Origin: a virus
Taxonomy: Duplodnaviria; Heunggongvirae; Uroviricota; Caudoviricetes
IMG/VR virus record: IMGVR_UViG_3300042564_004737
Length of the DNA: 64,000 nucleotides
Direction: 5' to 3' (one strand)
How positions within the stretch are numbered: position 1 is the stretch's first letter; each line of letters begins with the position of its first letter. The notes beneath the pieces are model-generated. The model was given only the letters and a program-made list of their open reading frames with translations, was not told the origin of the DNA and made no database searches. The translations under genes were made by a program, and so were the position numbers. Of this stretch, positions 1,711 to 33,028 are shown in pieces.

Positions 1711-3249
1711 TTACAGTGCGCCCCAGGTACCGTCTTCTTTCTGTTGCGGTTTGCCAAGTCCGGTGTCCAGACCCATGCCTTTGGCTCGCATGCCTCTGAC
1801 AACTATGTTGCCATTGGGCAGGGTGATCTGTCGCTGTCCAAACGGCATGTGATATGCCTGCGGCCCGCGCTGACTCACAATGGTCTTGGTGTCAGGATTG
1901 ATTTCATACCAGTCGTCGTCGTTAAAATTGGTGGTGTGTGCTGCTTCCATCACATCATACATGGTTTGTACCATACCCGGTGTAAATTTGCGTAGATTGA
2001 TTCTGCGGGCCTCCAGCCATTTCTGCACATCAGGACGCTGAAAATCAAAAGTCTTGATTTCAGCGCCGCGATACTGTTGTTGTAGATTGGCCAACTGCTG
2101 TTCATCTTTTACTCGTGCATATACTTTTGTGCCCTCTGGCAATTTGGCGTAGAACAACATTTCTGGCTCGGTGTTTTCTGTCACACCTTCGTTTTTGGCT
2201 CGGCCTGATTTCATGTTGGCCAGCCAGTGTGCCAGTTGTCCCTTGCGTCCACCTTGCTTGGCAGTTTTGCGTAGACTGCTTACACTGGCCTTGGTGTTGA
2301 TACCGTGACGCTTGGCATCGCCCTTGTCTTGGGGATTTCGCCCATCAGCAAAGTTTTCCGCCACATCGTGTGGCCCCTTGCTGAGCTGTTTATATTGGTC
2401 AAGAATACCCTGAATATCAGTTGGTTTGCCGCCCAAGGTGATTTGAATCAAGCTACCGGGTGCTGTCTTTTTGATCTTTTTAATATCTTGTTCAATTGAG
2501 TATTTAAGAAAGCCAGGCTCAAGGTTAAACTCTCTAGCATCAAACACTACGCGAGTGTTGTCAATGGGCAAATTGCCTTTGGGATCAATTGCTTGTATTA
2601 TCACTTGGTTGGCCGGCTTTGACCGCCGCCAGGCTTCTCGTCGAGCCTCATGCGCAGCGATTCCTGCCTGACCCTCTGGAGAAGCATTATAACGGTCAAC
2701 GTCATTTTTGTATGCAACATGGATATCAGCATCAACATTGAATCCTTGGCCGTCAAGGTATTCATCCATGTCCTCTTGCACCATGGTGTCAACCATGCGG
2801 TATGCTTCTCTACCAGCTTCCATTCCACGATTGATAAAAGCATCTGCTACGCTGTTTATTTCTTCGGCATCACTTTGGTTTTGACTTGTTGTGTCCATGC
2901 CGCTGACGTCAACTAAATCAAACTCACCTTCAGCATACAATTTTGCCATTTCTTTTAGAGCTATACCATATGCATATGGTCCAGCACCTTCAGCTCCACC
3001 TGGTGCGAATTCGTTTAATAAGCCTTCCGCCACACCTTCTGACTTGTTGCCATAGTTGGCAGCACCTTTTTTGCGACACTGAACTAATCGACCGGATGCA
3101 TAGGCACTGGGCCATACTTTGGCCGATGCCTTGACCTTGTAGTAGCAGGCATCTTTTTTGCCCTCGCCTAGTTCTGAATATTCCACCACAGGTCCACCAC
3201 AGTGCGGACATTTTTGTTGTGATTCTGTAATGATATCATTTATGTTCAT
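1711..3249 (-). CDS. Modular putative internal head polyprotein (512 aa)
   Basis: Start corrected to MNINDIITE (ATGA overlap with upstream stop). Modules KKDACYYKVK...CRKKG and NFADG...LANMKSGR are separated by GVAE/DVAE/GVTE linkers. Confidence 0.8.
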   Translation of the reverse strand: MNINDIITESQQKCPHCGGPVVEYSELGEGKKDACYYKVKASAKVWPSAYASGRLVQCRKKGAANYGNKSEGVAEGLLNEFAPGGAEGAGPYAYGIALKEMAKLYAEGEFDLVDVSGMDTTSQNQSDAEEINSVADAFINRGMEAGREAYRMVDTMVQEDMDEYLDGQGFNVDADIHVAYKNDVDRYNASPEGQAGIAAHEARREAWRRSKPANQVIIQAIDPKGNLPIDNTRVVFDAREFNLEPGFLKYSIEQDIKKIKKTAPGSLIQITLGGKPTDIQGILDQYKQLSKGPHDVAENFADGRNPQDKGDAKRHGINTKASVSSLRKTAKQGGRKGQLAHWLANMKSGRAKNEGVTENTEPEMLFYAKLPEGTKVYARVKDEQQLANLQQQYRGAEIKTFDFQRPDVQKWLEARRINLRKFTPGMVQTMYDVMEAAHTTNFNDDDWYEINPDTKTIVSQRGPQAYHMPFGQRQITLPNGNIVVRGMRAKGMGLDTGLGKPQQKEDGTWGAL

Positions 3250-3533
3250 TTTTTCTTTCCTTTTGTACTGACATTTATTGCTGGGCCTGAACGATTGGCG
3301 TCGGGATCTTGTCTGCGTTTTCTGGCTGCTGCACTTGCACGACCTTTCTTGCCCAGTGCATGTGCTTTGGACTGTGGCAAACACTTGGGCTTGCCTTCAG
3401 ATTCTGACCCTCTAGCACAGTCGCCGCGTATCTTACCATCGGGACCAAAGCGTACCCATTTATCTTTGAACCAGTCGCGAAGATTTTCATTGACGTCCAC
3501 GCCGGAACCGAATGCAAATTCATACAGTCTCAT
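3246..3533 (-). CDS. Small basic Cys-containing putative internal head protein (95 aa)
   Basis: Start corrected to MRLYEF; VNE-NLRDWFKDKWVR...C...KPKCLP...RKRRQDP. Confidence 0.75.
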   Translation of the reverse strand: MRLYEFAFGSGVDVNENLRDWFKDKWVRFGPDGKIRGDCARGSESEGKPKCLPQSKAHALGKKGRASAAARKRRQDPDANRSGPAINVSTKGKKK

Positions 3534-3534
3534 G

Positions 3535-4320
3535 TCAGCAGTTCCATCTACGGCGTGCTTTGCATATGGCCTTGTCCGGAGTTTTAGCACAGCTGATGCT
3601 GTGCATTTTCATTTGACCACGGCTGCGGCTGCAATAGCTCTTACGACGTTTCGACGCCTTCGAACCTTTCTTTAATTTGCTGGGCTTGGTAGTTACAGCA
3701 GTCTTTAGTTTGGACCCGGGATTTTCTCTGCGATAAGCGTTGACAGCTTTCTGACTCATGCCGGCAGTACGATCCTTTTTGTTGGCCTTTTGCCAATCTT
3801 CCATGATTGGCGTAGTCACTGCAAACACATACAACTCATCATCTGTCAGTGAGTCGAGGTCTTCCCATATTGTCTCTGCATCTACCCCATTGCGATCTGC
3901 AAGACTGTCAATGATAGACTCTATTAGATCAAACTCTTCGTTTAGTTCCACGCGATCTGTTGCACTTACTCCTGTGCTGAGTTCCAGTATTCTTGCCAAT
4001 TCATCTTGATTTTCTGTCATTGCGGTCTCCTTTTCTTCGTTTTTAGGCACACAGTTGGGAACCATTTTGTTGCTTTTTTTCTTCATACCAACTTGTTTGT
4101 GTGTGTCCCAGCATGCTTCATCCAAGTTGTCCTGTGAATGATCGCCGTGTGTTTCACACAGGCCACACATTTCACACACCATTTCCATTTCTGCGCTTTC
4201 GTTTTGCTTCTTCTTTCCAGCGCAATGGGCCCGCTGACTAAAGCCCTTGGGATGACTGCAATTGATACTTTTTTTGTATTTTTGGCTCCAGCCTTCTGTG
4301 GTAAATTCTTTTGTTTTCAT
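3535..4320 (-). CDS. Modular putative internal head polyprotein (261 aa)
   Basis: MKTKEFTTE leader; basic Cys modules after Glu: GWSQKYKKSINC..., ACWDTHKQVGMKKK...NCVP, DWQKANKK...ARRRWNC. Confidence 0.8.
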   Translation of the reverse strand: MKTKEFTTEGWSQKYKKSINCSHPKGFSQRAHCAGKKKQNESAEMEMVCEMCGLCETHGDHSQDNLDEACWDTHKQVGMKKKSNKMVPNCVPKNEEKETAMTENQDELARILELSTGVSATDRVELNEEFDLIESIIDSLADRNGVDAETIWEDLDSLTDDELYVFAVTTPIMEDWQKANKKDRTAGMSQKAVNAYRRENPGSKLKTAVTTKPSKLKKGSKASKRRKSYCSRSRGQMKMHSISCAKTPDKAICKARRRWNC

Positions 4321-4775
4321 GTTCTTGCCAGCACAAATGGTTGATCGCTGCCAATGAACTCAAGATAGTTGTTCAAGGCCGCTGGGTATTTATCGGTGGG
4401 CACTAGTTCATATCCCTGTGCATGGCGCCGAATCATTGCGGTGTATGCACTGGATCTGCCGCCACCAGACTTGGCACTGAACGCTAGATACGGTGGTTTA
4501 TATTTTTTTGCATAGGTGTTGATAGCGTTGATCACAGTGGCCATTACTCGTCCTGCATCACCACGCCCAGTCATTTCATGTGTTCCGCCGCGAGTAAATG
4601 CTACATCAGTTACTTCACCATTGCCTGCAGGAGTAAACGATATGCCAATTTCTCTGCCGTCAGCATCTGTGGCCGACGCATGAATTTCACCTTGAGCTGC
4701 AAACTGCTGATCCCACTTTAGTGGAAATGCTGTGTCAAGATCAACTACTTCGTTTAAAAGTTCACTGGCTCTCAT
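4317..4775 (-). CDS. Putative head-packaged protein, alpha/beta domain (GNAT-like possible)
   Basis: MRASELLNE leader; TGRGDAGRVMATV...LAFSAK...RSSAY segment. Confidence 0.65.
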   Translation of the reverse strand: MRASELLNEVVDLDTAFPLKWDQQFAAQGEIHASATDADGREIGISFTPAGNGEVTDVAFTRGGTHEMTGRGDAGRVMATVINAINTYAKKYKPPYLAFSAKSGGGRSSAYTAMIRRHAQGYELVPTDKYPAALNNYLEFIGSDQPFVLART

Positions 4776-5659
4776 AGTCCAATCTTTCCTGGGTACATGG
4801 GTCCAGATTCAACTCGTTCGCCGCCATCAAAGTAACTGATTTGCACAGGCAGTTCTTTCCAACCCAGGGCAGCAGCAGCCATGATACGATGATTACCTTC
4901 GTTGACCCAAGCACTGCCATCGTAGGCCACATTGATAAAAGGCTTGTATTCTTCATTAGTAAAACTATGCAGTGGCAATTTGCCAGTGTCTTTCATTATT
5001 TTCATAATGGCTGCTAGATCCGCTTGTCGTACATTTTGCTGTTCGTTTCGCATGCCCGGTAGTCGCTTGAGTATATCCATGGATACCATTGGTTCAGGTC
5101 TAACAGTAGCAGTGGTCTTGCCCATGTAGGGCAACCCGTTGCGGTCGGGACTTTTTTGCTTGGCATACGCAATAGCATCGTCAAGCCATTCTTCGTTGGG
5201 TACATCAACTCTGAGTTCTTCCGCCAGCTCGGGGCTCCATTGCATTGCTTTGCCACCTTTGACAGTTGGAGAAAAGCCTTGTCCTCGGTAGAATTTGGTC
5301 AGTTTACTTTGGCTTACTTGTCCTTTGTCCCAGGGGAATAATGTAAGGCTGATTCCATCTTCTCGGGCCATGGCTTGCAGTTCTTTCATAGCACGACTGC
5401 CCACCCCAGACCGTAGCGGATACGCTTGAAACCATTTGACTTCAACTGCGCCACGCCGGCTGAAGCTAGGAGTTAATTCAAACATTGCAAACTGTTGGTC
5501 ATCTCCCGAGCCCCAGGTCATCACATGATTGTTCTGCATGGTTTGCGGATAACGGGCATACACCTTTTCAATCCAGGTTCGTGCCCGGGCTGCTGCTTCA
5601 GCACCACCAATCTTGATTCTTGCTGGTTCGTCTTCGTGTAAAAATTCTAGTGCTCTCAC
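4772..5659 (-). CDS. GNAT acetyltransferase + ParB/Srx-like domain fusion (295 aa)
   Basis: GTG start overlapping upstream TGA gives MRALEFLHE. GNAT motifs RSGVGSRAM and FYRGQGF; ParB-like WVNEGNHRIMAA. Confidence 0.75.
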   Translation of the reverse strand: MRALEFLHEDEPARIKIGGAEAAARARTWIEKVYARYPQTMQNNHVMTWGSGDDQQFAMFELTPSFSRRGAVEVKWFQAYPLRSGVGSRAMKELQAMAREDGISLTLFPWDKGQVSQSKLTKFYRGQGFSPTVKGGKAMQWSPELAEELRVDVPNEEWLDDAIAYAKQKSPDRNGLPYMGKTTATVRPEPMVSMDILKRLPGMRNEQQNVRQADLAAIMKIMKDTGKLPLHSFTNEEYKPFINVAYDGSAWVNEGNHRIMAAAALGWKELPVQISYFDGGERVESGPMYPGKIGL

Positions 5660-8600
5660 GACGGCTCCATGACTGGCACAACCGCAACTTCGATACCATC
5701 TTGGTATCCTGCACGAGCCAGCCATCCTGCTGCAACTCTGTTGGCATCTGCTTGTGAATTGCCAATGCCGCTGAAGGTGTGTAGTGTATTGCCTTGGCTG
5801 TCTTTGATTGCCCATGTGCCTCTAAATGTTCCACTAGCGGCAGATTGCTGTGCTGCTTGTTGACGTTGGCGTTGCAGATCCAGGGTGCTACCAGGAACAA
5901 AGTTCTGTTCTACATCTGGCTCAATGTCAATGACGCCGGGCACAGGTGTTGTGGCCACAGGACCTTGAATTGGTGTGTCAATTGGTGCGTATCTAAAGTC
6001 ATCTCTGCCGCCAGCTTCGGGACTCATCAACCAGTCAGTGAATTCAGCATTGGCCTGTGCTTGATCAGCAGCATAGAATGTGCCCACTGTTCTACCATCA
6101 GAGATTTGATAGATCTTGTAGTTGCTTTGTCCGGGCGTGAGTTCAGCATAGGTATCTTTGACCTTGTTGCGTTCCAGTTGTGCTTGTTTGATAAAACTCT
6201 TTAGTGCAGCCTTGGGCAATTCACCAGCAGCAAATTTAGCAAAATAACTCAAGGTATCATTTTGGTCTTTAGGCTTGAGTACAGTGTACAGCTTCTTCAG
6301 GTATTCGTCGCGATACTTTGCCGGATCCATGGCAGCATCTAATGCCACTACAAATCTCAACAGCGTGGTTTCAATCTTGTCAAAGTTTTCATTTAGCCAA
6401 TCGCCGCCGGGACTGCGAAACTCAATGTATCCAGTCTTGGTATTGATACTGGTATACTTGCTGGTCGTGCCGCTGTGTATAACTTTGGTGGCCAGTTCGC
6501 CCAGGCCTGTTTTCATTTTTTGCAACATGGCAGCAGCATCTTCGGGACGCTGAGCGATTCGCTCTTTGATCATGCCCATGGCGCTTTTGGCATAGGTGTT
6601 GCCGGTGCGTCCAAATTGATCCAGCACATACTGGTCACCCAGCAGCAGAGCTAGTTTAACATAGTCCAGTTTGTCGTTGTCAAAGCCCGGCACACTCACA
6701 TTGATGTGCAGGCCGGTTGAATCATTGGTGTAGCAGCCTCGTTGTTTGGCCCAGGCCCGGACCTTGTTTAGATCACTAATCATGTCGTCAACAGGCAAGG
6801 GCGGGCTCACAAACTCCAGTCCAGAATCGTTGCTGTCATCTGGTTCCAGGCTGCCGTCAGGCTCAACCACATAAGCATCGGGTTCGCGGCGGCCACCATG
6901 ATAGTTGGCAGACCAGTTTACCTTGCGACCAATGGCCTCACGGAATTCATCAGCAACTTCTTCAATGCTGGCGCCTTCGCTGCCAGGAGTGCTCCAATAG
7001 GGCCAGGAAATATCGTACTGACTCGAAACATCGCTCATTGAGCGAATGCCTTCACTTCTCAGCCAATCCTCTTCATGATCATCATTGTAATAGTCTTCTT
7101 GTGCATCTTCCTGCGCATCATTCAGCCAGGGATCCAAACCGTCTTCAATGACTTTTTCGGCAGCGTCCATGTAATCTTCAGGGCTTGCTCCACGATTTTC
7201 CAACGCTTCTGCTGCGGCTTCGTCCAGGCCCAATATTTCAGCAATGTCTGCCTCTGACCAATTTTCTTTGCCGTATCTAAACACAATGGTGTTTTTGTAG
7301 GTTTCAAAATACTCCATCCATGCATCGCCTAGCCATGTCTGATAATCTTCGCTCATGCTGTCACGCAGGCGTTGAATGTCTCTTCGACCGTTGAAGTCAC
7401 CGTCAAAAAAGAACTGCGCTGCATCTTCGATGCTCATGACATTTTCGTCGGCGTCGTAGTCGGGTTCCATATCCGCAGCATCGTCGCCGCCATCAGCACC
7501 GGGCACAATCATCTCAAATTCCATGCCAGCCATGGCGCCTGTTTGTGCTGCCAGTTTCTTTAGATTTGTGGGACTCATGTTGATTTCAAACAGGTCCTGA
7601 TCTTCATACAGTTTCAGTTCACGACTCAGGCGGTTGACTATATCACGGTGTTCAGTGTCATCTTCGGCCAGGTGTTGCTTCAACACATTCATCTGTTCGA
7701 TGCCGCCCCGGCTCAACTGAAACCCATTCATCCTGGCTCGTTCAATTCGTGTCTTTTGGCTGGGGTGACTGCTGGTAGGTGACTGTGTCAGAACATCCAA
7801 CAGTTGCAATTCTGCTTCGTTCTTGGCAATGAATTTGAATACTTCGGCCTTGTTGTAGCCCAGTGTCTTGCACAGGCGCACTGCGAACTCGTCTGCGTCT
7901 AGTTCGCCTTGCCGATACTGTGCAGCCACTCGTACTTGAGTCTTGTAGTCCGCTGACGCATCATCGGTACCAGTGGCATGTTCCAGGGCAATGTGTCCCA
8001 GCTCATGTGCTATGGTAAATGCCAAGGCCGCATCTGGAGCATCCCAGAACACCGAAAGATCAATAGTGATGGTGCGCGAAATTGCACTGGCCTGTGCATA
8101 ATTTTCACTTGAGACTACACGAATGGTAGTGCCTTTCAACAGCGGCGCCCATTTGGGGCCTGCTGCTGCAATCAATTGGCGCAGGATGTCTTGGCATCGA
8201 GTAGTGAGTTCTTTGTACCTGGGCACCCATACTTTGTTGAACTGGTCAGGATTGGTGTTTCCTAGGGCAGCAACATCCACAAAAGGTCCGGCTTTGGCCA
8301 CGCCCGGTACCGCAGCAGCCATTGCGCCTGCACCCAACGCTTTTAACGCAGCCCGGCGATCAACTTCGGACAAGTCATCTTCAGCCACATTGTATGTGGG
8401 GTCAGTCCGTTGCCGCTGCATGCGATCTTCACGCAGGTTGGCAGTCTTCATCAACAGTGCCGGCTTGCCTTGCGTGTCTGTGCGAAGGTTTAATTTGTTG
8501 GCTTCTCGACCTGTGGCACCAGGTTGTACATCTTTTGTAAGAGCCATGCTAAAGCGTGGATCTCTAGCTTGTTTTTTTGTTGGAATATAACCAGAACTTT

Positions 8601-9999
8601 CATTGGCATTTGCACCACGGCGCAGCACATTCTTAAGTTCTTGTTTTGCTCCGTGTTCCAACCCAGCACGAGTCAATTGGCTGGCTCGCACAGCAGCCTT
8701 CACAGCGTCAGCGCCAGTGTTGATCGGAGTGGTTGTGGCGCAGCCTGGTGAACCAGCAACACATGCTGCCAATGCAGCCGTGGCTAACTTGTCCCGGATA
8801 CCTTCTTCTAACCCGTCATCGTTGAAAAACTCCGGATGCTGTTCGGCATAGTCACGCATCAGCACACCGGCCTGGGCGTTGGCTTGATTTTCCCATCGGC
8901 TACCAGTGGCGCCGGCAGTGTCTGGCACTGTTTCTATTTCGTGTTGTCTGGTGTGGGTGAGTTCATGTGCCACTGTGCGCAATATGTCCATCACATGGCG
9001 TCCAGCTAGGCTCACTTCCAATAGATTATGGTCAGAATTGTAACGGCCAAAAGTTTTGTTACGAGCGCTCCACTGCGGATCCTTCTTGAACTTCACTTGA
9101 GGCGGTTGCTCAATGCCCAACTGCTCCACACAGTAATCAATGAACGATGACACAATGTCAACGACACTGGCTGCGGGCTTTTCGCTTAAGAACATTTTTG
9201 TTTCGGGGCTCACACCACTGGGATTGCTGCTGACATCTTCAGTTTTGAATCCGTATGTGAATGGTCGTTTAACAACTATTTCACGCTCACGCAGGCTCAA
9301 CTCCCGGTCTCTGGCAGCGTTTCTAGCGTCAATCAATCGTTTGATAGCGCCTTGGTTGCGCAGCATTTTGAATGCTAGATTATCTGCACCAAACTCGCCA
9401 TGCTGATTCAGTCCGGCTTGTCGCATGGCTTTGATTTTGCTCATCAATTTGGCCATGTCATCATGATCACCAGATGCAACAGCACTATCAATTCGTGCAG
9501 CCAAATCTTCGTATTTGCTGCGAGTGGATATGTCATCTACTCCAGCATCTCTACGCTTGGGCACATCAATCCATTGATTGTTCAACACACTGTAAATGCC
9601 TTGACTCACATGTGTTTTATTAGCATCTTGTACATACAGTTCCACAGGATGACTGCCAATGGTGATGTTGTGCTGTTGGTTGTATTGAAACTTTTTAGCA
9701 TCAAACAGTTCGCGATACACTTCGCTGTTGTCAGCTTCGGGCAAATCAACCACCAGGTGTAGATCGATGTCAGAATTGGGAGTGTATGTGTACGCAGCAT
9801 TGGATCCGCTGATGGTTATATCTTTGAGATCGTATCCGCTTACTCCTAAAAACTCGCGGAAATCATCAGCTATTTGCAGCAAATGATCATGCACTTCGGG
9901 CCGTAACTGTTCGTTGTTGTCCCACAGACGCGGATTCAAACGCTGGTTAAACTTAACAGCGTCGGCCAAATTGTAGGAATCAAGTTCAAGAATATTCAT
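5656..9999 (-). CDS. Polyvalent polyprotein (1447 aa): Pol-beta nucleotidyltransferase, HExxH metallopeptidase, Tat-like signal + M48-like protease, amidoligase
   Basis: Start corrected to MNILEL, 7 nt after TAAATA. Motifs: GSNA...SDIDLH; AHELTH (8953-8967); DRRAALKALGAG...AKA; AHELGH (7993-8007) with SHPS..RI; GMEFE, PDGSL, EFVSPP, TGLHINV, EFRSPGG. Confidence 0.85.
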   Translation of the reverse strand: MNILELDSYNLADAVKFNQRLNPRLWDNNEQLRPEVHDHLLQIADDFREFLGVSGYDLKDITISGSNAAYTYTPNSDIDLHLVVDLPEADNSEVYRELFDAKKFQYNQQHNITIGSHPVELYVQDANKTHVSQGIYSVLNNQWIDVPKRRDAGVDDISTRSKYEDLAARIDSAVASGDHDDMAKLMSKIKAMRQAGLNQHGEFGADNLAFKMLRNQGAIKRLIDARNAARDRELSLREREIVVKRPFTYGFKTEDVSSNPSGVSPETKMFLSEKPAASVVDIVSSFIDYCVEQLGIEQPPQVKFKKDPQWSARNKTFGRYNSDHNLLEVSLAGRHVMDILRTVAHELTHTRQHEIETVPDTAGATGSRWENQANAQAGVLMRDYAEQHPEFFNDDGLEEGIRDKLATAALAACVAGSPGCATTTPINTGADAVKAAVRASQLTRAGLEHGAKQELKNVLRRGANANESSGYIPTKKQARDPRFSMALTKDVQPGATGREANKLNLRTDTQGKPALLMKTANLREDRMQRQRTDPTYNVAEDDLSEVDRRAALKALGAGAMAAAVPGVAKAGPFVDVAALGNTNPDQFNKVWVPRYKELTTRCQDILRQLIAAAGPKWAPLLKGTTIRVVSSENYAQASAISRTITIDLSVFWDAPDAALAFTIAHELGHIALEHATGTDDASADYKTQVRVAAQYRQGELDADEFAVRLCKTLGYNKAEVFKFIAKNEAELQLLDVLTQSPTSSHPSQKTRIERARMNGFQLSRGGIEQMNVLKQHLAEDDTEHRDIVNRLSRELKLYEDQDLFEINMSPTNLKKLAAQTGAMAGMEFEMIVPGADGGDDAADMEPDYDADENVMSIEDAAQFFFDGDFNGRRDIQRLRDSMSEDYQTWLGDAWMEYFETYKNTIVFRYGKENWSEADIAEILGLDEAAAEALENRGASPEDYMDAAEKVIEDGLDPWLNDAQEDAQEDYYNDDHEEDWLRSEGIRSMSDVSSQYDISWPYWSTPGSEGASIEEVADEFREAIGRKVNWSANYHGGRREPDAYVVEPDGSLEPDDSNDSGLEFVSPPLPVDDMISDLNKVRAWAKQRGCYTNDSTGLHINVSVPGFDNDKLDYVKLALLLGDQYVLDQFGRTGNTYAKSAMGMIKERIAQRPEDAAAMLQKMKTGLGELATKVIHSGTTSKYTSINTKTGYIEFRSPGGDWLNENFDKIETTLLRFVVALDAAMDPAKYRDEYLKKLYTVLKPKDQNDTLSYFAKFAAGELPKAALKSFIKQAQLERNKVKDTYAELTPGQSNYKIYQISDGRTVGTFYAADQAQANAEFTDWLMSPEAGGRDDFRYAPIDTPIQGPVATTPVPGVIDIEPDVEQNFVPGSTLDLQRQRQQAAQQSAASGTFRGTWAIKDSQGNTLHTFSGIGNSQADANRVAAGWLARAGYQDGIEVAVVPVMEPS

Positions 10000-10006
10000 T
10001 ATGTAA

Positions 10007-10012
10007 TATTTA
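10007..10012 (-). promoter_or_regulatory. Late promoter core TAAATA
   Basis: GCTAAATATTACATA-ATG of the 1447-aa gene. Confidence 0.65.
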
Positions 10013-10066
10013 GCGCAAATGGAAAAGCCACTGTTAAAGTGGCTTTGTGGAGTGTTGCAGTTTGTT

Positions 10067-10933
10067 TTATTTCTTTTTCTTGCTGGCAGCAATAACTTTG
10101 GTTTCTGCCACAGCAGGTGTAGCAGTTGCAACCTGGGCTGCCAGGGCCGATTGTTTTGCCAGCACATTGGGCGTAAATGCGTCAATCAGCGTTTCTTGTG
10201 CTTCGTGAGCAAAAGTATATGTGCCTGTATGGCGCAACAACACACGCTTGTCTACCCAGACCTTACCACCTAGATCACGCCAGTTTTCACAGAATGTCCA
10301 GTCTTCACTATAGTAGCGATTCTCACGCACTGCTGTGTCAAAGTAGGTTTTCATGTAGGGGTTGAGTTCTGCAGACAAGCCAATGTCATTGATAAATGGT
10401 TTAGTAGCAGGGTGTGCATTTAGTTTTTCAAAAACATCACGCTTGATCAACAAGAATCCTGTACCAGTTTTGCTCACTTCCTGCAGGCCGTCGGTGCCTT
10501 CTTCTCCGCCTTCGATGCCGTTTACACACCATTTGATGGGCAGGCTCTTCATTGGATACAGGCCGCCGATCACATCAACTTGTCGGTTCAACAACACCAA
10601 AATATGCCAGGGTTCAAAGCCAATGTCAGCATCAATAAACAACAGGTGTGTGCTGTCTTTGTTGTGCAAAAACTTAGCAGTGAGTGTGTTACGGGCACGA
10701 CTGATCAAACTTTCGTTTGTGAGCGTTTCCATGGTCCAATCAATGCCCAACTGGCGTGCAGTGTTGCTCCATTTGATATAGCTCATGAATGTGCTTTCAG
10801 TTAACTGACCGCCATAGCATGGCATACAGATGTGTACTCGCGTGGTTTTCAAGTAGTCAATGTTTACTTGGATTTGTTGTTGCCCGCCGACGGGAGTTGA
10901 GGGCAATTCTGTTGTTGGTTGTGCGTCAGCCAT
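10067..10933 (-). CDS. GT-A fold glycosyltransferase
   Basis: ICMPCYGG, SLISRARN, LLFIDAD (DxD), GTGFLLIKR, SEDW.FC; SD AAGGAAAAC before MADAQ. Confidence 0.8.
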   Translation of the reverse strand: MADAQPTTELPSTPVGGQQQIQVNIDYLKTTRVHICMPCYGGQLTESTFMSYIKWSNTARQLGIDWTMETLTNESLISRARNTLTAKFLHNKDSTHLLFIDADIGFEPWHILVLLNRQVDVIGGLYPMKSLPIKWCVNGIEGGEEGTDGLQEVSKTGTGFLLIKRDVFEKLNAHPATKPFINDIGLSAELNPYMKTYFDTAVRENRYYSEDWTFCENWRDLGGKVWVDKRVLLRHTGTYTFAHEAQETLIDAFTPNVLAKQSALAAQVATATPAVAETKVIAASKKKK

Positions 10934-13667: not shown

Positions 13668-14357
13668 TTATCCTTGTACGATGGTATTTGTCTTTTTTAT
13701 CAAACGAGAGTTGATCAAGCTCAACATGGTCAAACAAGCAGCGTCATTATGATCAATGAAATAGTAAGGTTCTGTCCATTTGAACGGCTGTGTTGTCCAA
13801 TCGGCCAAACAGGGACTCAGTCTGAAATCAGCACGGTTATTGTTTAAGAACTGCACAATCGATTGCTTTTGCTGATCGGTCAGTTTTGCTCTTGCAAAAT
13901 AGCTGCGATACTGATGTTGTGGATTCTTCAATGTCACAGTGTCTCGCACACGATCAATCACGGCCTGTTTATAATTGACCCATGCAAAATGACCCACAGC
14001 CAACAACTGATCAAACAACACAGCATCGTTTGTGTACAGACGAATGTTGCCCCATTCCACTAGCAATTTGAAAGGATATGCAGTGTCTATCAGCAGTTGA
14101 CAAATTTTGTGTAAATTGTCAATTACATCAGCGGGCATGCCGGGGTTTCTGGCAGACAGCAGGGGGGTGTGATAGGTGCGGCGCATCTGTACCACTTCAT
14201 CTATCCACTTGTGTGTGAGCCGTCGCAGACAAGTGGCTTCGCTAAGGCCAGCGGTCATGCAATACCTGTATTGATCGAAAAATAAGCGATCTCTACTGAC
14301 GGATTGAAATTCAGACAGCAGGGGCATCGAGTAAAATATATCCTTTTCCGTCCACAA
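13668..14357 (-). CDS. Hypothetical protein
   Basis: 229-aa ORF tiling after clpA; start uncertain (14327 possible). Confidence 0.65.
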   Translation of the reverse strand: MWTEKDIFYSMPLLSEFQSVSRDRLFFDQYRYCMTAGLSEATCLRRLTHKWIDEVVQMRRTYHTPLLSARNPGMPADVIDNLHKICQLLIDTAYPFKLLVEWGNIRLYTNDAVLFDQLLAVGHFAWVNYKQAVIDRVRDTVTLKNPQHQYRSYFARAKLTDQQKQSIVQFLNNNRADFRLSPCLADWTTQPFKWTEPYYFIDHNDAACLTMLSLINSRLIKKTNTIVQG

Positions 14358-16584
14358 TTGGCAGGGGACCAGTCAGCGGTTTGGTCACAAACATCAGCTC
14401 GTCAGCAACCATGATGGCCAATATAGAACAGTCTTTGATCTGATCAAACAGTATGCGCTTGCTGAGCGGAACACGAATCAGTTCGTCAATCTTGCGACTC
14501 AGCGGTCTAGCACCCATCTTGGGATCGTATCCTTTTTCCGACAGCATGTTGATAACACTTTCATCAAACATCAGCTTGATGTTCTTGGCGTACAGGCTCT
14601 GCTGTAGTTCTCGTGTGAACTTGACCACAACTTTCTTGATGGCCAATGGATCCAACTTGTTGAACTTGCACACAGCATCAATGCGGTTACGCAGTTCCGG
14701 CTTGAAGAAGTCTTTCATTGCACGATCTTCTTCGCCGTATTTTTCCAACGATTTGCCAAAGCCAATGTTGTTGTTTTCATTGTCTCTGGCACCTAAATTA
14801 CTGGTCATGATGATGATGCAGTTTTTAACATCAACTGATTTGCCACTGCTGCCAGTAATTTTGGCTTCGTCCAGCATCTGCAACATGATGTTGACCACGT
14901 CAGGATGTGCCTTTTCAATTTCATCAAACAGCAGCACACTGAATGGGTTCTTGGATATGTCACTGATCAATTTGCCGCCGCCCACATTGCCGTCATCAAA
15001 GCCCACATAGCCCGGCGGTGCACCAATCAAGCTGGCAATGCTGTGCTTTTCCTGAAACTCGCTCATGTCATATTTCAGCAGGTGCATGTCAAGATTCTCT
15101 GCCAGCAGCTTGGCCAATTCTGTTTTGCCTGTGCCAGTTGGACCCAGGAACAAAAAGCTGGCCACCGGCTTTTTGGGATTGCCAATGCCAGAGAAGTTGA
15201 TGTACACTCGTTCCAGCACAGTGTCAATTGCTGCATCCTGCCCGTACAGGAATTGTTTGACATTGCTTTCAAGTTCGGTAATTTTGATACTGCGTTCGTT
15301 TTGCAAGCGGTCCAGTGGAATACTGGTCACACGGCTGACCTGTGCCATGATCATGTGTTTGTTCACTGTGACTGTGCCTTGATCCAACACTCGCTGTGCA
15401 GCACAGGCACCGTCCAGCAGATCAATTGACTTGTCAGGATTCTTACGATCGTGTATGTAGCGTCCACTCAGTTCCACTGCTGCACACATGGCGTCTGTGT
15501 CAATCATCACATTGTGGAATGATTCCAGTCTAGGGCTGATGCCAATCAGGATCTGCTCAGTGGTGGCAGCATCCGGCTCACCAATGGTGACTCTGTGAAA
15601 ACGGCGCATTAGCGCACGATCACGCTCGAATGATTCGTAGTATTCTTCCCAGGTGGTACTGGCAATCACTTTCAAGTTGCCACTGGTGATGGCCGGTTTG
15701 ATCATGTTGGCAAAGTCCAGACTGCTGGATCCACTGGCACCCGCACCCATCATGGTGTGTGCTTCGTCAATGAACAGCACACAGTTCTTCTTGGTTTTCA
15801 ATGCTGTGATAACATCTTTGAACTTTTCTTCAAACTCGCCGCGATACTTGCTGCCAGCCAACAGGGATCCAATTTCCAGTCCCCAAACTTCTGCACCTTT
15901 GAGAAACTCTGGCACAGAGCCAGCATGAATTTCTTGTGCCAGTCCGTCAATGATGGCAGTTTTGCCCACACCCGGATCGCCCACCATCAGCACATTGGCC
16001 TTGAACTTGCGGGCCAGCACAGTGATCATTTCTTCCAGTTCGGCTGTGCGCCCAATCATGGGTTCAAGTTGACCTTCGGCTGCTCTGCGACTCAAATTGA
16101 CACAGTGTTCTTCAAGAATTTCGTCGGCCTTGGCGCTGGTCAATTCCACATCAGTGATGTTGTAATTCTTTTGGAAGAATTCAGCAAATTCTGTTTTGCG
16201 AACATTATACTTCAACAAGTAGTAATGTGCATGGCTGTTGGTTTCAGACATCATGGCCAAATACAAGTCCAACAAGGTAATTGTTCTACGGCCCGTGAAC
16301 AGTACCTGTGTCAGCGCCCGATTAAACACTCGCTCCAGTGCATTGGTTTTGCGTGGGGGATCTGTGCGGTCTGTCAACAGGCTGGTTTGACTCTGCAGGT
16401 AGTTGTGCAATTCAGATTCTAGTTGTTCAACTGGTGTTCCGTATTTTTCTAGTATTTTGCGGAACGATGGATACTGTACCATGGCCAGCAGCACATGTTC
16501 TGTCAGCACATATCCGTGTTTGTGTCCCACAGCAATGGCAGTGGCGTTGTTGACTACAGCATCGATTTCTGGATTATTTTGCAT
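14311..16584 (-). CDS. clpA: ClpA-like ATP-dependent Clp protease ATP-binding subunit
   Basis: Clp N-domain, Walker A GDPGVGKT and GPTGTGKT, KYRGEFEE, FIDEAH, FDEIEKAHP, IGF loop, GARPL; no ClpB middle domain. Confidence 0.9.
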   Translation of the reverse strand: MQNNPEIDAVVNNATAIAVGHKHGYVLTEHVLLAMVQYPSFRKILEKYGTPVEQLESELHNYLQSQTSLLTDRTDPPRKTNALERVFNRALTQVLFTGRRTITLLDLYLAMMSETNSHAHYYLLKYNVRKTEFAEFFQKNYNITDVELTSAKADEILEEHCVNLSRRAAEGQLEPMIGRTAELEEMITVLARKFKANVLMVGDPGVGKTAIIDGLAQEIHAGSVPEFLKGAEVWGLEIGSLLAGSKYRGEFEEKFKDVITALKTKKNCVLFIDEAHTMMGAGASGSSSLDFANMIKPAITSGNLKVIASTTWEEYYESFERDRALMRRFHRVTIGEPDAATTEQILIGISPRLESFHNVMIDTDAMCAAVELSGRYIHDRKNPDKSIDLLDGACAAQRVLDQGTVTVNKHMIMAQVSRVTSIPLDRLQNERSIKITELESNVKQFLYGQDAAIDTVLERVYINFSGIGNPKKPVASFLFLGPTGTGKTELAKLLAENLDMHLLKYDMSEFQEKHSIASLIGAPPGYVGFDDGNVGGGKLISDISKNPFSVLLFDEIEKAHPDVVNIMLQMLDEAKITGSSGKSVDVKNCIIIMTSNLGARDNENNNIGFGKSLEKYGEEDRAMKDFFKPELRNRIDAVCKFNKLDPLAIKKVVVKFTRELQQSLYAKNIKLMFDESVINMLSEKGYDPKMGARPLSRKIDELIRVPLSKRILFDQIKDCSILAIMVADELMFVTKPLTGPLPIVDGKGYILLDAPAV

Positions 16585-32419: not shown

Positions 32420-33028
32420 TTAAATTTTATTAACACCAGGCTTGTTTTGAGCAAGCTGGCGTGGGGTTTTCATTAATTCTTGTTTGACTGACTGTGTTCG
32501 TGCTATGGCCGCTGCCAGTCCTCCGCGGGGAACCGCAACTTTTTCCGGCACCACTACAGGGTCCTCTGTCAGTTCAGGAATAGCAGCTTCAAACTCAGTC
32601 AATTCGTCCATTGATTCAATATCTGGCGCATCCTCACCTGCTTGCATCTTGTCATAGTTGGAAACCAATCGTTCATCGTTGTACGCATCTAACACAGATT
32701 CGTTGACAACTTTCACAGCACGAGGTTTGACAGGTGCGGGTGTGTCTTTTGCAACTTTTTCTTTGGCAGCTTTTTTTTGACTTTGTTGTTTTTTAGCAGC
32801 GATGGTGCTGGTGGTTGGCAAATGATTGGCCGGAGCAGCCACTTGTCGTTGATAATGTTTGGCAACCTGTCTGTTTTTGGTTTCCACTACACGATTGCCA
32901 CTGTCCAGCACATCGCCACGGGCGTTGACATTCATGTTGCCTACTGCTCGAGTGTTTTCGTTTTCCAACATCAATGCGCCCATGTCAACCACTCGACCCA
33001 TTGCTGATTTATATACTTTTGTTGCCAT
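32420..33028 (-). CDS. Hypothetical late protein
   Basis: AVGNMNVNARGD; TAAATA at 33053-33058 and SD AAGGGG. Confidence 0.7.
   Translation of the reverse strand: MATKVYKSAMGRVVDMGALMLENENTRAVGNMNVNARGDVLDSGNRVVETKNRQVAKHYQRQVAAPANHLPTTSTIAAKKQQSQKKAAKEKVAKDTPAPVKPRAVKVVNESVLDAYNDERLVSNYDKMQAGEDAPDIESMDELTEFEAAIPELTEDPVVVPEKVAVPRGGLAAAIARTQSVKQELMKTPRQLAQNKPGVNKI

What the first reader, a model, noticed from the sequence alone, without database searches (positions are those of the whole stretch)
5656..9999. 1447-aa polyvalent protein with enzymes separated by protease-type Glu linkers
Seen, N to C: Pol-beta nucleotidyltransferase (9999-~9240); FLSE linker; HELTH metallopeptidase (~9180-8830); GLEE linker; hydrophobic Cys module; NANE linker; short basic module; NVAE-DDLSE linker; Tat-like signal plus HELGH protease (~8364-7670); HLAE and DLFE linkers; amidoligase (~7584-6150); C-terminal domains. 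Each boundary is a hydrophobic-x-Glu. Established: polyvalent multi-enzyme proteins occur in phages and are thought to be delivered early to counter hosts. Inference: the prohead protease cuts this protein into separate effectors bound for different compartments, a viral-style polyprotein strategy.
Basis: partly seen in the sequence, partly recalled or inferred. Interest (0 to 1): 0.85.

Follow-up and report, generated by a model that had tools for sequence, protein, structure and literature searches.

The report
Phage head-cargo polyprotein with hidden export signals
A 340-kb T4-like jumbo phage encodes a 1447-residue chain of enzymes joined by the cutting motif of its own head protease, and two modules start with bacterial export signals that only cutting could expose, which suggests (untested) that the phage loads the chain into its head, chops it, and delivers pieces to different compartments of the next host.

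Summary
Window 5659-9999 (-) is one 1447-aa ORF. Its order is: Pol-beta nucleotidyltransferase, small HExxH zincin, lipoprotein-like cassette, conserved basic peptide, Tat-like signal plus M48 peptidase, glutamine-synthetase-like amidoligase, two small C-terminal domains.

Leu/Ile-x-Glu is not more frequent overall than chance. However, the copies at module junctions lie in low-confidence AlphaFold linkers. They are far better conserved than copies inside domains (median 0.87 vs 0.37). They also coincide with homology breakpoints among more than 1000 relatives.

- The genome encodes a T4 gp21-type prohead protease, which in T4 cuts after L/I-x-E.
- Genes directly downstream carry T4-like capsid-targeting leaders (MRAxEFxxE).
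- Free-standing relatives of the M48 module start with that leader. The twin arginines follow 2-4 residues after its Glu, the spacing seen inside the polyprotein.
- Two free-standing copies end one residue before the polyprotein's LAE site.
- In relatives, envelope-type modules (LysM+GH19) carry Sec signals after the motif. A NUDIX module behind the same linker has none.
- An Atu_ph07 homologue of the amidoligase (gp196) is in a published virion proteome.

The scan has noted buried Tat signals in similar phage proteins in at least six other genomes.

The parts
5656..9999 (-). Whole gene, 1447 codons plus stop. Its stop overlaps the GTG start of the next gene (GTGA).
10007..10016 (-). Promoter-like box GCGCTAAATA, 7 nt before the ATG. 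The same GCGNTAAATA box precedes the portal and tail-sheath genes, so it is a likely late promoter.
10024..10046 (-). Terminator-like hairpin (AAAGCCACT / AGTGGCTTT) that closes the upstream gene.
   Evidence: read from the sequence
9985..9999 (-). aa 1-5, MNILE. A short leader ending in I-L-E, with the motif kept in 96% of relatives. It may be a stub of a capsid-targeting leader.
9286..9984 (-). aa 6-238, Pol-beta-type nucleotidyltransferase with a helical tail, ending at LRE 236-238. The free-standing S-CRM01 g125 ends at the equivalent of residue 236.
9181..9285 (-). aa 239-273, a low-confidence linker ending in the conserved FLSE.
8803..9180 (-). aa 274-399, a small zincin (HELTH 345-349, minigluzincin/SprT-like) ending in LEE 397-399. 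It is present in nearly all relatives.
8602..8802 (-). aa 400-466, an insert cassette absent from most relatives. Right after LEE it has a charged start, a short Ala/Leu core, a lipobox-like LAAC and a second Cys. It ends in ANE.
8428..8601 (-). aa 467-524, a conserved basic peptide (SSGYIP...) that always follows a Glu and ends in LRE. AlphaFold gives it no confident fold.
8365..8427 (-). aa 525-545, a variable spacer ending in the conserved LSE 543-545.
8290..8364 (-). aa 546-570, a Tat-like signal: VD-RR-AALK, a Gly/Ala core, then AKA before G571.
7663..8289 (-). aa 571-779, M48-type zinc peptidase (HELGH 665-669) ending in LAE 777-779. Free-standing homologues end one residue earlier.
7585..7662 (-). 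aa 780-805, low-confidence spacers with LYE 797-799 and the invariant LFE 803-805.
6151..7584 (-). aa 806-1283, glutamine-synthetase-like amidoligase (Amidoligase_2) with a helical insert. This is the conserved core of the family.
5962..6129 (-). aa 1291-1346, a small beta-beta-alpha-beta domain, repeated in some relatives. No L-x-E motif precedes it.
5659..5832 (-). aa 1390-1447, a second small beta-beta-alpha-beta domain. Longer relatives continue past it with L-E-E, then further modules.
3535..5659 (-). Three downstream genes coupled by overlapping stops and starts. Each begins with a T4-like capsid-targeting leader: MRALEFLHE, MRASELLNE, MKTKEFTTE.

Best explanation
The gene encodes a head-cargo polyprotein.

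1. It is made late, from a promoter-like box it shares with the portal and sheath genes. It heads an operon of genes that carry T4-type capsid-targeting leaders.
2. It is built into the prohead core. There the phage's gp21-type serine protease cuts after Leu/Ile-x-Glu in the flexible linkers.
3. The predicted pieces are: a nucleotidyltransferase (6-238), a small zincin (274-399), a lipoprotein-type precursor (400-466), a basic peptide (467-524), a Tat-signal M48 peptidase precursor (546-779), and the amidoligase with its two small C-terminal domains (806-1447).
4. The pieces travel in the head and are ejected with the DNA into the next host.
5. Cutting places the lipoprotein-type and Tat-type signals at new N-termini. 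The host's own export machinery can then send those two pieces to the envelope, while the others act in the cytoplasm.

Shown: the anatomy, the conservation, the protease gene, the leaders, and the layout in relatives. Inferred: packaging, cleavage, ejection and export.
For: (1) The genome encodes Peptidase_S77 (E 9e-25), next to the scaffold and a gp23-type capsid protein whose N-terminus has LLE|G twice. T4 gp21 cuts after L/I-x-E (PMC9026906).

(2) Junction motifs at 236, 271, 397, 522, 543, 777, 797 and 803 all lie in segments with pLDDT below 50, or at a domain edge. Their conservation has a median of 0.87, against 0.37 for intradomain copies (Mann-Whitney p 3e-4).

(3) BLAST breakpoints against 119 relatives pile up at residues 399, 467, 545-547 and 797-800. 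In the all-vs-all comparison, [LIVM]xE ends exactly at 9.6% of HSP right ends, against a 1.5% background.

(4) Residues 400-466 are an inserted cassette bracketed by LEE|G and ANE|S.

(5) Leaders of the form MRAxE[FL]xxE occur at only 6 gene starts in the genome, and 3 of them lie directly downstream of this gene. The T4 capsid-targeting sequence is MKTYQEFIAE (PMC8442874).

(6) Among 75 complete free-standing relatives of the M48 module, 48 start with such a leader and 24 have a Tat motif. Of those 24, 23 have the leader, and in 22 of the 23 the twin arginine lies 2-4 residues after [LIVMF]xE. Seven of eight long multi-module relatives have the same E-xx-RR internally. RR is invariant in 26 sequences of 22-56% identity, and two free-standing copies end at ...QHLA, one residue before the query's LAE.

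(7) These free-standing genes sit in arrays of leader-bearing genes.

(8) In relatives, LysM+GH19 modules follow L-D-E|G plus a Sec-type signal. A NUDIX module behind the same linker has no signal.

(9) The Tat HMMs pass their cut-offs in homologues: P0041 24.9 against 22.7, P0184 24.1 against 16.7.

(10) Atu_ph07 gp196 is a homologue of the amidoligase (E 2e-34). It starts with a 13-residue leader ending in LTE, and it was found in purified virions with 14 unique peptides and 30% coverage.

(11) The GCGNTAAATA box is shared with the portal and sheath genes.

(12) All 5 large related phage records tested carry the S77 protease.
Against: - There are no measurements on this protein: no virion proteomics, no N-termini, no export assay.
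- The motif is short, and its overall count is not above chance (17 against 12 +/- 3).
- The polyprotein's own N-terminus, MNILE, is not a full capsid-targeting leader, so how it would be loaded into the head is unknown.
- The query's own Tat segment scores below the TIGR01409 cut-off (12.4 against 16.7 bits). Its lipoprotein-type core is only about 8 residues long.
- The junctions after the amidoligase lack the motif.
- All relatives belong to one phage lineage, so co-occurrence with the protease is not independent evidence.
- The promoter box is short: 10 copies in the genome against about 3 expected from my own estimate.
- The Foldseek matches are all weaker than E 1e-3.
Confidence: 0.6

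Rival explanations
1. The chain is cut at the same junctions, but by its own zinc peptidases (the small zincin at 274-399 or the M48 domain) or by a host protease. This could happen before, during or after delivery, as Iyer et al. proposed for polyvalent proteins in general.
For: - There are two HExxH domains, and the small zincin is kept in nearly all relatives with invariant HExxH.
- Iyer et al. 2017 argue that zincin-like peptidases process polyvalent proteins (PMC5512222).
Against: - The conserved positions are P3 Leu/Ile and P1 Glu, with a variable P1' (G, S, V, I, D, K, R). That is the published gp21 pattern. From my own knowledge, zincins usually select on P1', so this does not look like zincin specificity.
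- Free-standing Tat-M48 proteins and unrelated leader-bearing genes have the same E-ended leader without the small zincin.
Confidence: 0.15
2. The protein stays whole. It would be an ordinary polyvalent multi-enzyme protein, packaged or not. The hydrophobic stretches would be membrane anchors or relics of captured genes, and the L-x-E motifs only a linker habit.
For: - The overall motif count is at the chance level.
- N4 vRNAP-type polyvalent proteins are packaged unprocessed (PMC5512222).
- The query's Tat segment is sub-threshold.
Against: - The hydrophobic cores are 8-15 residues and rich in Gly/Ala, which is too short for membrane helices.
- RR is invariant over 26 diverged sequences, and the Glu-to-RR spacing is fixed at 2-4 residues whether 9 or more than 500 residues lie upstream.
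- Signals accompany envelope-type modules only.
- No Met lies between the junction and the signal in most relatives, so internal initiation cannot explain the layout.
Confidence: 0.13
3. The chain is cut as proposed, but the pieces act in the producing cell rather than the next host. The signal-bearing pieces would be exported late in infection, for example for envelope remodelling, exclusion of other phages, or lysis.
For: - The gene has late-type promoter context.
- In T4, small cleavage fragments leave the prohead (PMC9026906).
- Envelope-directed enzymes (M48; GH19 in relatives) would also suit lysis or exclusion.
Against: - In T4, gp21 acts on proteins already built into the prohead core (PMC9026906).
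- I infer that folded pieces of 200-640 residues could not leave through the pores used by small peptides.
- The amidoligase homologue stays in mature Atu_ph07 virions.
Confidence: 0.1

Closest known systems
T4 internal head proteins IPI, IPII, IPIII and Alt (capsid-targeting sequence, cut by prohead protease gp21, ejected with the DNA)
   Same: - The protease family is the same: S77 is present in this genome.
- The cleavage motif is the same, L/I-x-E.
- The downstream genes and the free-standing module homologues carry near-identical leaders: MRAREFIAE against T4 MKTYQEFIAE.
- Enzymatic cargo has a precedent in Alt.
   Different: - T4 cargo proteins are single-module and are cut at their ends only. 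Here up to about ten cuts would release six or more modules from one chain.
- No T4 internal protein is known to me to carry an export signal behind the cut site.
- The polyprotein's own leader is only a 5-residue stub.
Polyvalent proteins of phages and conjugative elements (Iyer, Burroughs, Anand, de Souza, Aravind 2017, PMC5512222)
   Same: - Several unrelated enzymatic domains, including zincin-like peptidases, sit in one phage polypeptide.
- Module content varies between relatives.
- The proteins are predicted to be delivered with the DNA.
   Different: - That paper proposes processing by the protein's own zincins and never mentions signal peptides.
- Here the junctions carry the prohead-protease motif, and some modules begin with Tat, Sec or lipoprotein-type signals.
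Ejection and inner-body proteins of giant phages phiKZ and SPN3US, cut by their prohead proteases after x-x-Glu motifs (PMC5694885, PMC10052503)
   Same: Large head-internal proteins of giant phages, cut after Glu by gp21-related proteases, sometimes at several sites, and ejected into the host.
   Different: - They belong to a different phage lineage. From my own knowledge, their motif is S/A/G-x-E rather than L/I-x-E.
- As far as I found, those proteins are not chains of recognisable enzymes and have no buried export signals.
Agrobacterium phage Atu_ph07 gp196 (AUZ94978.1) and Ralstonia phage RsoM2USA gp26
   Same: - They are homologues of the amidoligase module (35% and 31% identity; E 2e-34 and 5e-34).
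- Short N-terminal leaders end in L-T-E or L-S-E, just before the same start of the domain.
- gp196 is in the virion proteome.
   Different: They are single-module, 500-524 aa proteins with no fused NTase, zincin or M48 and no signals.

Membership tests
Substrates of T4-type prohead protease (gp21 / Peptidase_S77) | The phage encodes a gp21-family protease in its head module. | tested here: met
   PF03420 at 84.9 bits against a 27-bit cut-off, at G000:C1:197443-197898, between the portal and the scaffold/MCP.
Substrates of T4-type prohead protease (gp21 / Peptidase_S77) | L/I-x-E motifs at accessible sites. | tested here: met
   Nine conserved motifs lie in low-pLDDT linkers or at a domain edge. 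The motif definition comes from PMC9026906.
Substrates of T4-type prohead protease (gp21 / Peptidase_S77) | Cleavage after the Glu actually observed. | not testable with these tools
   No proteomic data exist for this uncultured phage.
T4-type capsid-targeted internal proteins | An N-terminal leader of about 10 residues resembling MKTYQEFIAE and ending in the cut site. | tested here: inconclusive
   The polyprotein starts MNILE|L, which gives only 5 residues, although the motif is 96% conserved. Full leaders are present on the three downstream genes and on free-standing M48 homologues.
T4-type capsid-targeted internal proteins | Physical presence in the mature head. | not testable with these tools
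   The only support is by proxy: the amidoligase homologue Atu_ph07 gp196 is in the published virion proteome.
Polyvalent proteins (Iyer et al. 2017) | Two or more domains of disparate biochemical activity in one phage polypeptide, often with a zincin-like peptidase. | tested here: met
   NTase, two HExxH peptidases and an amidoligase. Module content varies among relatives.
Twin-arginine (Tat) signal peptide | An S/T-R-R-x-F-L-K motif, a moderately hydrophobic core and an A-x-A site, recognised by the curated HMMs. | tested here: inconclusive
   The query segment RRAALK...AKA scores 12.4 bits in TIGR01409, below the 16.7-bit cut-off. Homologues pass: P0184 24.1, P0126 19.3, and P0041 at 24.9 against 22.7 in Pfam. 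RR is invariant.
Twin-arginine (Tat) signal peptide | Located at the N-terminus of the exported protein. | tested here: not met
   In the precursor it starts at residue 546. The condition would hold only after a cut at Glu545, which is the point of the hypothesis.
Bacterial lipoprotein signal peptide | A positive n-region, a hydrophobic core and a lipobox [LVI][ASTVI][GAS]C. | tested here: inconclusive
   The GIRDK + LATAALAA + C pattern fits by eye (lipobox L-A-A-C) and is conserved in 10 relatives after [LIV]xE|G. No dedicated predictor was available, and the core is short.
Peptidase M48 (PF01435) | A Pfam score over the gathering threshold, HExxH, and a downstream Glu. | tested here: met
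   33.5 bits against 20.3. H, E, H and a later E/D are invariant. Weak fold matches to 3c37 and BepA.
Amidoligase_2 (PF12224), glutamine-synthetase-like | A Pfam score over the threshold and a GS-like fold. | tested here: met
   33.7 bits against 22. The AF2 domain has pLDDT around 90, with top Foldseek hits to glutamine synthetase and YbdK at E 2e-3 to 8e-3.
Pol-beta nucleotidyltransferase (PF01909) | A Pfam score over the threshold, and the G-S ... D-x-D catalytic pattern. | tested here: inconclusive
   18.1 bits, below the 21-bit cut-off. The GS and DID motifs are present and invariant. PHROG 36119 scores E 1.5e-45. Weak fold hits to AadA and AAD(9).

The most novel reading that the evidence does not exclude
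The phage head protease acts as a 'cage opener'. Tat, Sec and lipoprotein signals are kept silent inside head-cargo precursors and are exposed only by cuts inside the capsid. Proteins injected with the DNA are then re-exported by the new host's own machinery to its periplasm and outer membrane, before any phage gene is expressed. The polyprotein would be a modular cassette system for such cargo.
Probability: 0.4. Interest if true: 0.9.

Novelty: new variant of a known kind. Interest (0 to 1): 0.8.

Why it matters
Phage proteins delivered with the DNA are thought to act in the cytoplasm (T4 Alt, IPI) or to form the ejection channel. If this reading is right, three things follow.

- T4-like jumbo phages also ship enzymes addressed to the host envelope. 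The head protease turns the address labels on, which would be a new route for the earliest host takeover.
- It gives a simple sequence rule for finding head cargo and its destinations in the very many uncultured T4-like phages: a leader or L/I-x-E, followed by a signal. More than 1000 relatives of this protein alone are on record.
- It offers a concrete alternative to the proposed self-processing of polyvalent proteins by their own zincins.

All of this can be tested with ordinary virion proteomics and reporter export assays.

Tried and rejected
- Overall motif enrichment. [LI]xE is 17 against 12 +/- 3 and [LIVMF]xE is 24 against 22.7 +/- 4 in shuffles. I rejected the count as evidence; only position and conservation count.
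- DNA search of isolated phages with the gene: no match.
- tblastn of the M48 module against isolated phages: no match. The module is known only from metagenomes.
With P0126 it found nothing.
- Contexts of the free-standing homologues P0184, P0138 and P0157 are contigs of about 1 kb. Only L008 and L011 gave usable neighbourhoods.
- The search for shorter proteins carrying the lipoprotein cassette or the basic peptide returned mostly fragments of the same polyprotein family. I found no free-standing leader-plus-lipoprotein form.
- The protein atlas search for the small C-terminal domains gave no usable hit. Their function is open.
- The Foldseek PDB matches for both models are all weaker than E 1e-3. 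I used them only as agreement with the Pfam calls.
- Internal translation starts as the source of the signal-bearing modules: rejected. Most relatives have no Met between the junction and the signal.
- Transmembrane-helix reading of the hydrophobic stretches: rejected, because the cores are 8-15 residues of Gly/Ala.
- Pfam found no GNAT or ParB domain in the next gene, so that part of a neighbouring note is unconfirmed.
- Literature: no paper in the searchable library links twin-arginine signals with capsid-targeting sequences or prohead proteases. The library is incomplete.
Full report
**The object.** The frame at window 5656..10185 (-) is open for 1509 codons. The ATG at 9999 gives 1447 residues. 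It follows the stop of the upstream gene, a terminator-like hairpin and an A/T-rich box. The window lies in a 340,172-bp IMG/VR virus record rated 98% complete. That record has a clamp loader, an ATP-dependent protease and a tail-fibre gene. Its head module is T4-type: portal, S77 protease, scaffold and a gp23-family capsid protein.

**Modules.** Pfam passes its own cut-offs for Peptidase_M48 (residues 691-756) and Amidoligase_2 (1009-1200). It gives sub-threshold hits for NTP_transf_2 (56-108) and SprT-like (309-357). PHROG 36119 covers residues 9-235 at E 1.5e-45.

I made two AlphaFold models from family alignments (A2, A3). They place confident domains at 27-237, 276-392, 576-730, 809-1235, 1291-1346 and 1390-1447. 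Segments with pLDDT below 50 lie at 238-275, 393-575, 730-807, 1237-1290 and 1347-1389. Foldseek matches are weak, all above E 1e-3, but they agree with the Pfam calls. The N-terminal model hits AadA/AAD(9) nucleotidyltransferases, minigluzincins, and the M48 proteins 3c37 and BepA. The C-terminal model hits glutamine synthetase and YbdK.

**Is the Leu-x-Glu pattern more than chance?** By count, no. [LI]xE occurs 17 times against 12 +/- 3 in shuffles. By position and conservation, yes.

- Ten of the 17 sites fall in the third of the protein with low pLDDT (binomial p 0.03).
- In alignments of 45-49 relatives, the junction sites keep the motif in 73-100% of sequences (residues 3, 236, 271, 397, 522, 543, 777, 797, 803). 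Intradomain sites keep it in 18-72%. The one exception is the catalytic VVE at 1044. Medians are 0.87 against 0.37, Mann-Whitney p 3e-4.
- BLAST breakpoints of 119 relatives against the query pile up at 399, 467, 545-547 and 797-800.
- In an all-against-all comparison, [LIVM]xE ends exactly at the last aligned residue in 9.6% of unique HSP ends, against a background of 1.5%.
- Residues 400-466 are an insert absent from most close relatives. The insert is bracketed by LEE|G and ANE|S, where the others read L-E-E-S.

The boundaries after the amidoligase lack the motif. I therefore expect residues 806-1447 to stay in one piece.

**The family.** More than 1000 proteins of 800-2500 residues match, and 432 loci in IMG/VR do. 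The nucleotidyltransferase, small zincin, basic peptide and amidoligase are nearly constant. Modules between and after them vary: M48, GH19 with or without LysM, NUDIX, DUF6934, DUF5661, DUF6886. In cultured phages the modules occur alone. The nucleotidyltransferase is found in T4-like cyanophages and Maribacter phages. The amidoligase is found in RsoM2USA and Atu_ph07.

**Link to the head protease.** T4 gp21 cuts after L/I-x-E (PMC9026906). This genome encodes a gp21-family protease. Its capsid protein starts with two LLE|G motifs, and the protease itself has LSE near its N-terminus.

The T4 capsid-targeting sequence is MKTYQEFIAE (PMC8442874). In this genome MRAxE[FL]xxE-type leaders occur at six gene starts. 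Three of them are the genes directly downstream of the polyprotein, coupled by overlapping stop and start codons. The box GCGNTAAATA lies 7 nt before the polyprotein's ATG. It recurs just before the portal gene and the tail sheath gene (PF17482, E 1e-15). This fits late co-expression with head and tail genes, but the box is short.

**The decisive comparison.** I searched 1.8 billion representative proteins with residues 546-790.

- Of 75 complete relatives of 460 residues or fewer, 48 begin with a capsid-targeting-type leader and 24 carry a Tat motif in the first 80 residues.
- Of those 24, 23 have the leader. In 22 of the 23 the twin arginine lies 2-4 residues after the Glu of [LIVMF]xE.
- One relative starts directly with M-D-R-R.
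- Seven of eight long multi-module relatives carry the same E-xx-RR internally, as does the query (LSE|VD-RR).
- RR is invariant across 26 sequences of 22-56% identity. Two free-standing proteins end at ...QHLA, where the query continues with Glu779.
- The curated Tat HMMs pass their cut-offs in homologues: P0184 24.1 and P0126 19.3 against 16.7, and P0041 24.9 against 22.7. The query's own segment scores only 12.4.
- The free-standing genes lie in arrays of leader-bearing genes, one of which is a NUDIX protein.

A signal that must be N-terminal thus keeps a fixed distance from a protease-type Glu, whether 9 or 545 residues lie upstream. Cutting after that Glu is the simplest account.

**Other signals.** Every signal-like hydrophobic stretch in the family begins right after [LIV]xE|G.

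- The lipoprotein-like cassette occurs in ten proteins and in at least three upstream contexts.
- A Sec-like segment lies before GH19.
- In P0092, L-D-E|G is followed by a textbook Sec signal ending in A-Q-A, then LysM and GH19.
- In P0118 the same adapter linker ends in I-D-E and is followed by NUDIX with no signal.

So envelope-type enzymes carry signals and cytoplasmic-type enzymes do not.

**Other module ends.**
- Cyanophage S-CRM01 g125, a free-standing nucleotidyltransferase, ends at the equivalent of residue 236, two residues before Glu238. It starts with a 14-residue leader ending in ISE.
- Atu_ph07 gp196 and RsoM2USA gp26, free-standing amidoligases (E 2e-34 and 5e-34), start with leaders ending in LTE and LSE.
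- Those leaders sit 18-20 residues before the first catalytic strand, as in the query after LFE805. This last point is read by eye.

**Experimental anchor.** In the Atu_ph07 paper, Table S5 lists gp196 among virion proteins: 57.94 kDa, 14 unique peptides, 30.2% coverage (PMC6102473). I mapped gp196 to AUZ94978.1 from the numbering of the portal (gp198), prohead core protein (gp204) and capsid protein (gp215). Atu_ph07 also has a gp21 homologue. This shows that a homologue of the core module is packaged. It does not show that this polyprotein is packaged.

**Mechanism and rivals.** Best reading (0.6): late synthesis, loading into the prohead, gp21-type cuts in the linkers, ejection, then host-mediated export of the lipoprotein-type and Tat-M48 pieces.

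- Rival 1 (0.15): the protein's own zincins cut it, as proposed for polyvalent proteins (PMC5512222). Against this, the conserved P3/P1 pattern with variable P1' matches gp21. The same Glu-ended leaders also occur on proteins without the small zincin.
- Rival 2 (0.13): no cutting occurs. This fails to explain the invariant RR and its fixed spacing.
- Rival 3 (0.1): the cut pieces act in the producing cell.

How the polyprotein would be loaded is open. Its N-terminus, MNILE|L, is only a stub of the leader. The invariant, unfolded basic peptide (467-524) is a candidate targeting element, but that is speculation.

**Novelty.** Head-packaged proteins cut by prohead proteases, and polyvalent proteins, are both known. 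I found two features in no paper: prohead-protease motifs at every junction of a multi-enzyme chain, and export signals unmasked by those cuts. The library is incomplete. This scan has noted buried Tat signals behind protease-type sites in phage proteins of at least six other genomes, and the same features on this window. Those notes agree with this report but are not independent evidence.

Noticed in passing
window 3535-5659 (-); G000:C1:65051, 234156 and 234527: Six genes in the genome start with a T4-like capsid-targeting leader (MRALEFLHE, MRASELLNE, MKTKEFTTE, MRAAEFVKE, MRATEFVLE, MRAREFIAE). Three form a translationally coupled run directly behind the polyprotein. One (window 4317-4775) has a weak DUF6934 hit, and DUF6934 is also a module inside related polyproteins.
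   Followed up: partly
window 10007-10016 (-); G000:C1:194438 and 224802: The box GCGNTAAATA lies 7-35 nt before the ATG of the polyprotein, the portal gene, the tail sheath gene and a 202-aa gene (window 32420-33028). It is a candidate late promoter of this phage, reminiscent of T4 TATAAATA.
   Followed up: partly
window 1711-3384 (-) and P0118 residues ~1830-1890: A basic segment (ENFADG...NTKASVSSLRKTAK...HWLANMK.GRAK) of the 557-aa neighbouring gene recurs at the C-terminal end of a related polyprotein, bounded by Glu. Small basic modules seem to be shared between neighbouring genes and polyproteins.
   Followed up: no
P0041 ~520-612, P0092 ~1185-1293, P0118 ~1600-1704: A conserved adapter module of about 110 residues (MP.GT.K.DV.D..DWY.LG..IS.LD ... 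RLGLKTHD.D) precedes different cargo modules in relatives: Tat-M48, Sec-LysM-GH19 and NUDIX. It is absent from the query and its function is unknown.
   Followed up: no
G000:C1:200407-201249 (outside the window): An HNH-endonuclease-like gene sits directly after the major capsid protein gene.
   Followed up: no
window 14311-16584 (-): A 757-aa ATP-dependent protease/AAA+ gene (PHROG 4871, E 8e-232) lies a few genes upstream. Clp/Lon-type proteins are also noted in Atu_ph07.
   Followed up: no
window 5659-6129 (-), aa 1291-1346 and 1390-1447: Two small beta-beta-alpha-beta domains at the C-terminus share a pattern (W/Y.I....G..(L/V).(T/H)F......A...A..WL). They are duplicated a variable number of times in relatives and match no known family.
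   Followed up: partly
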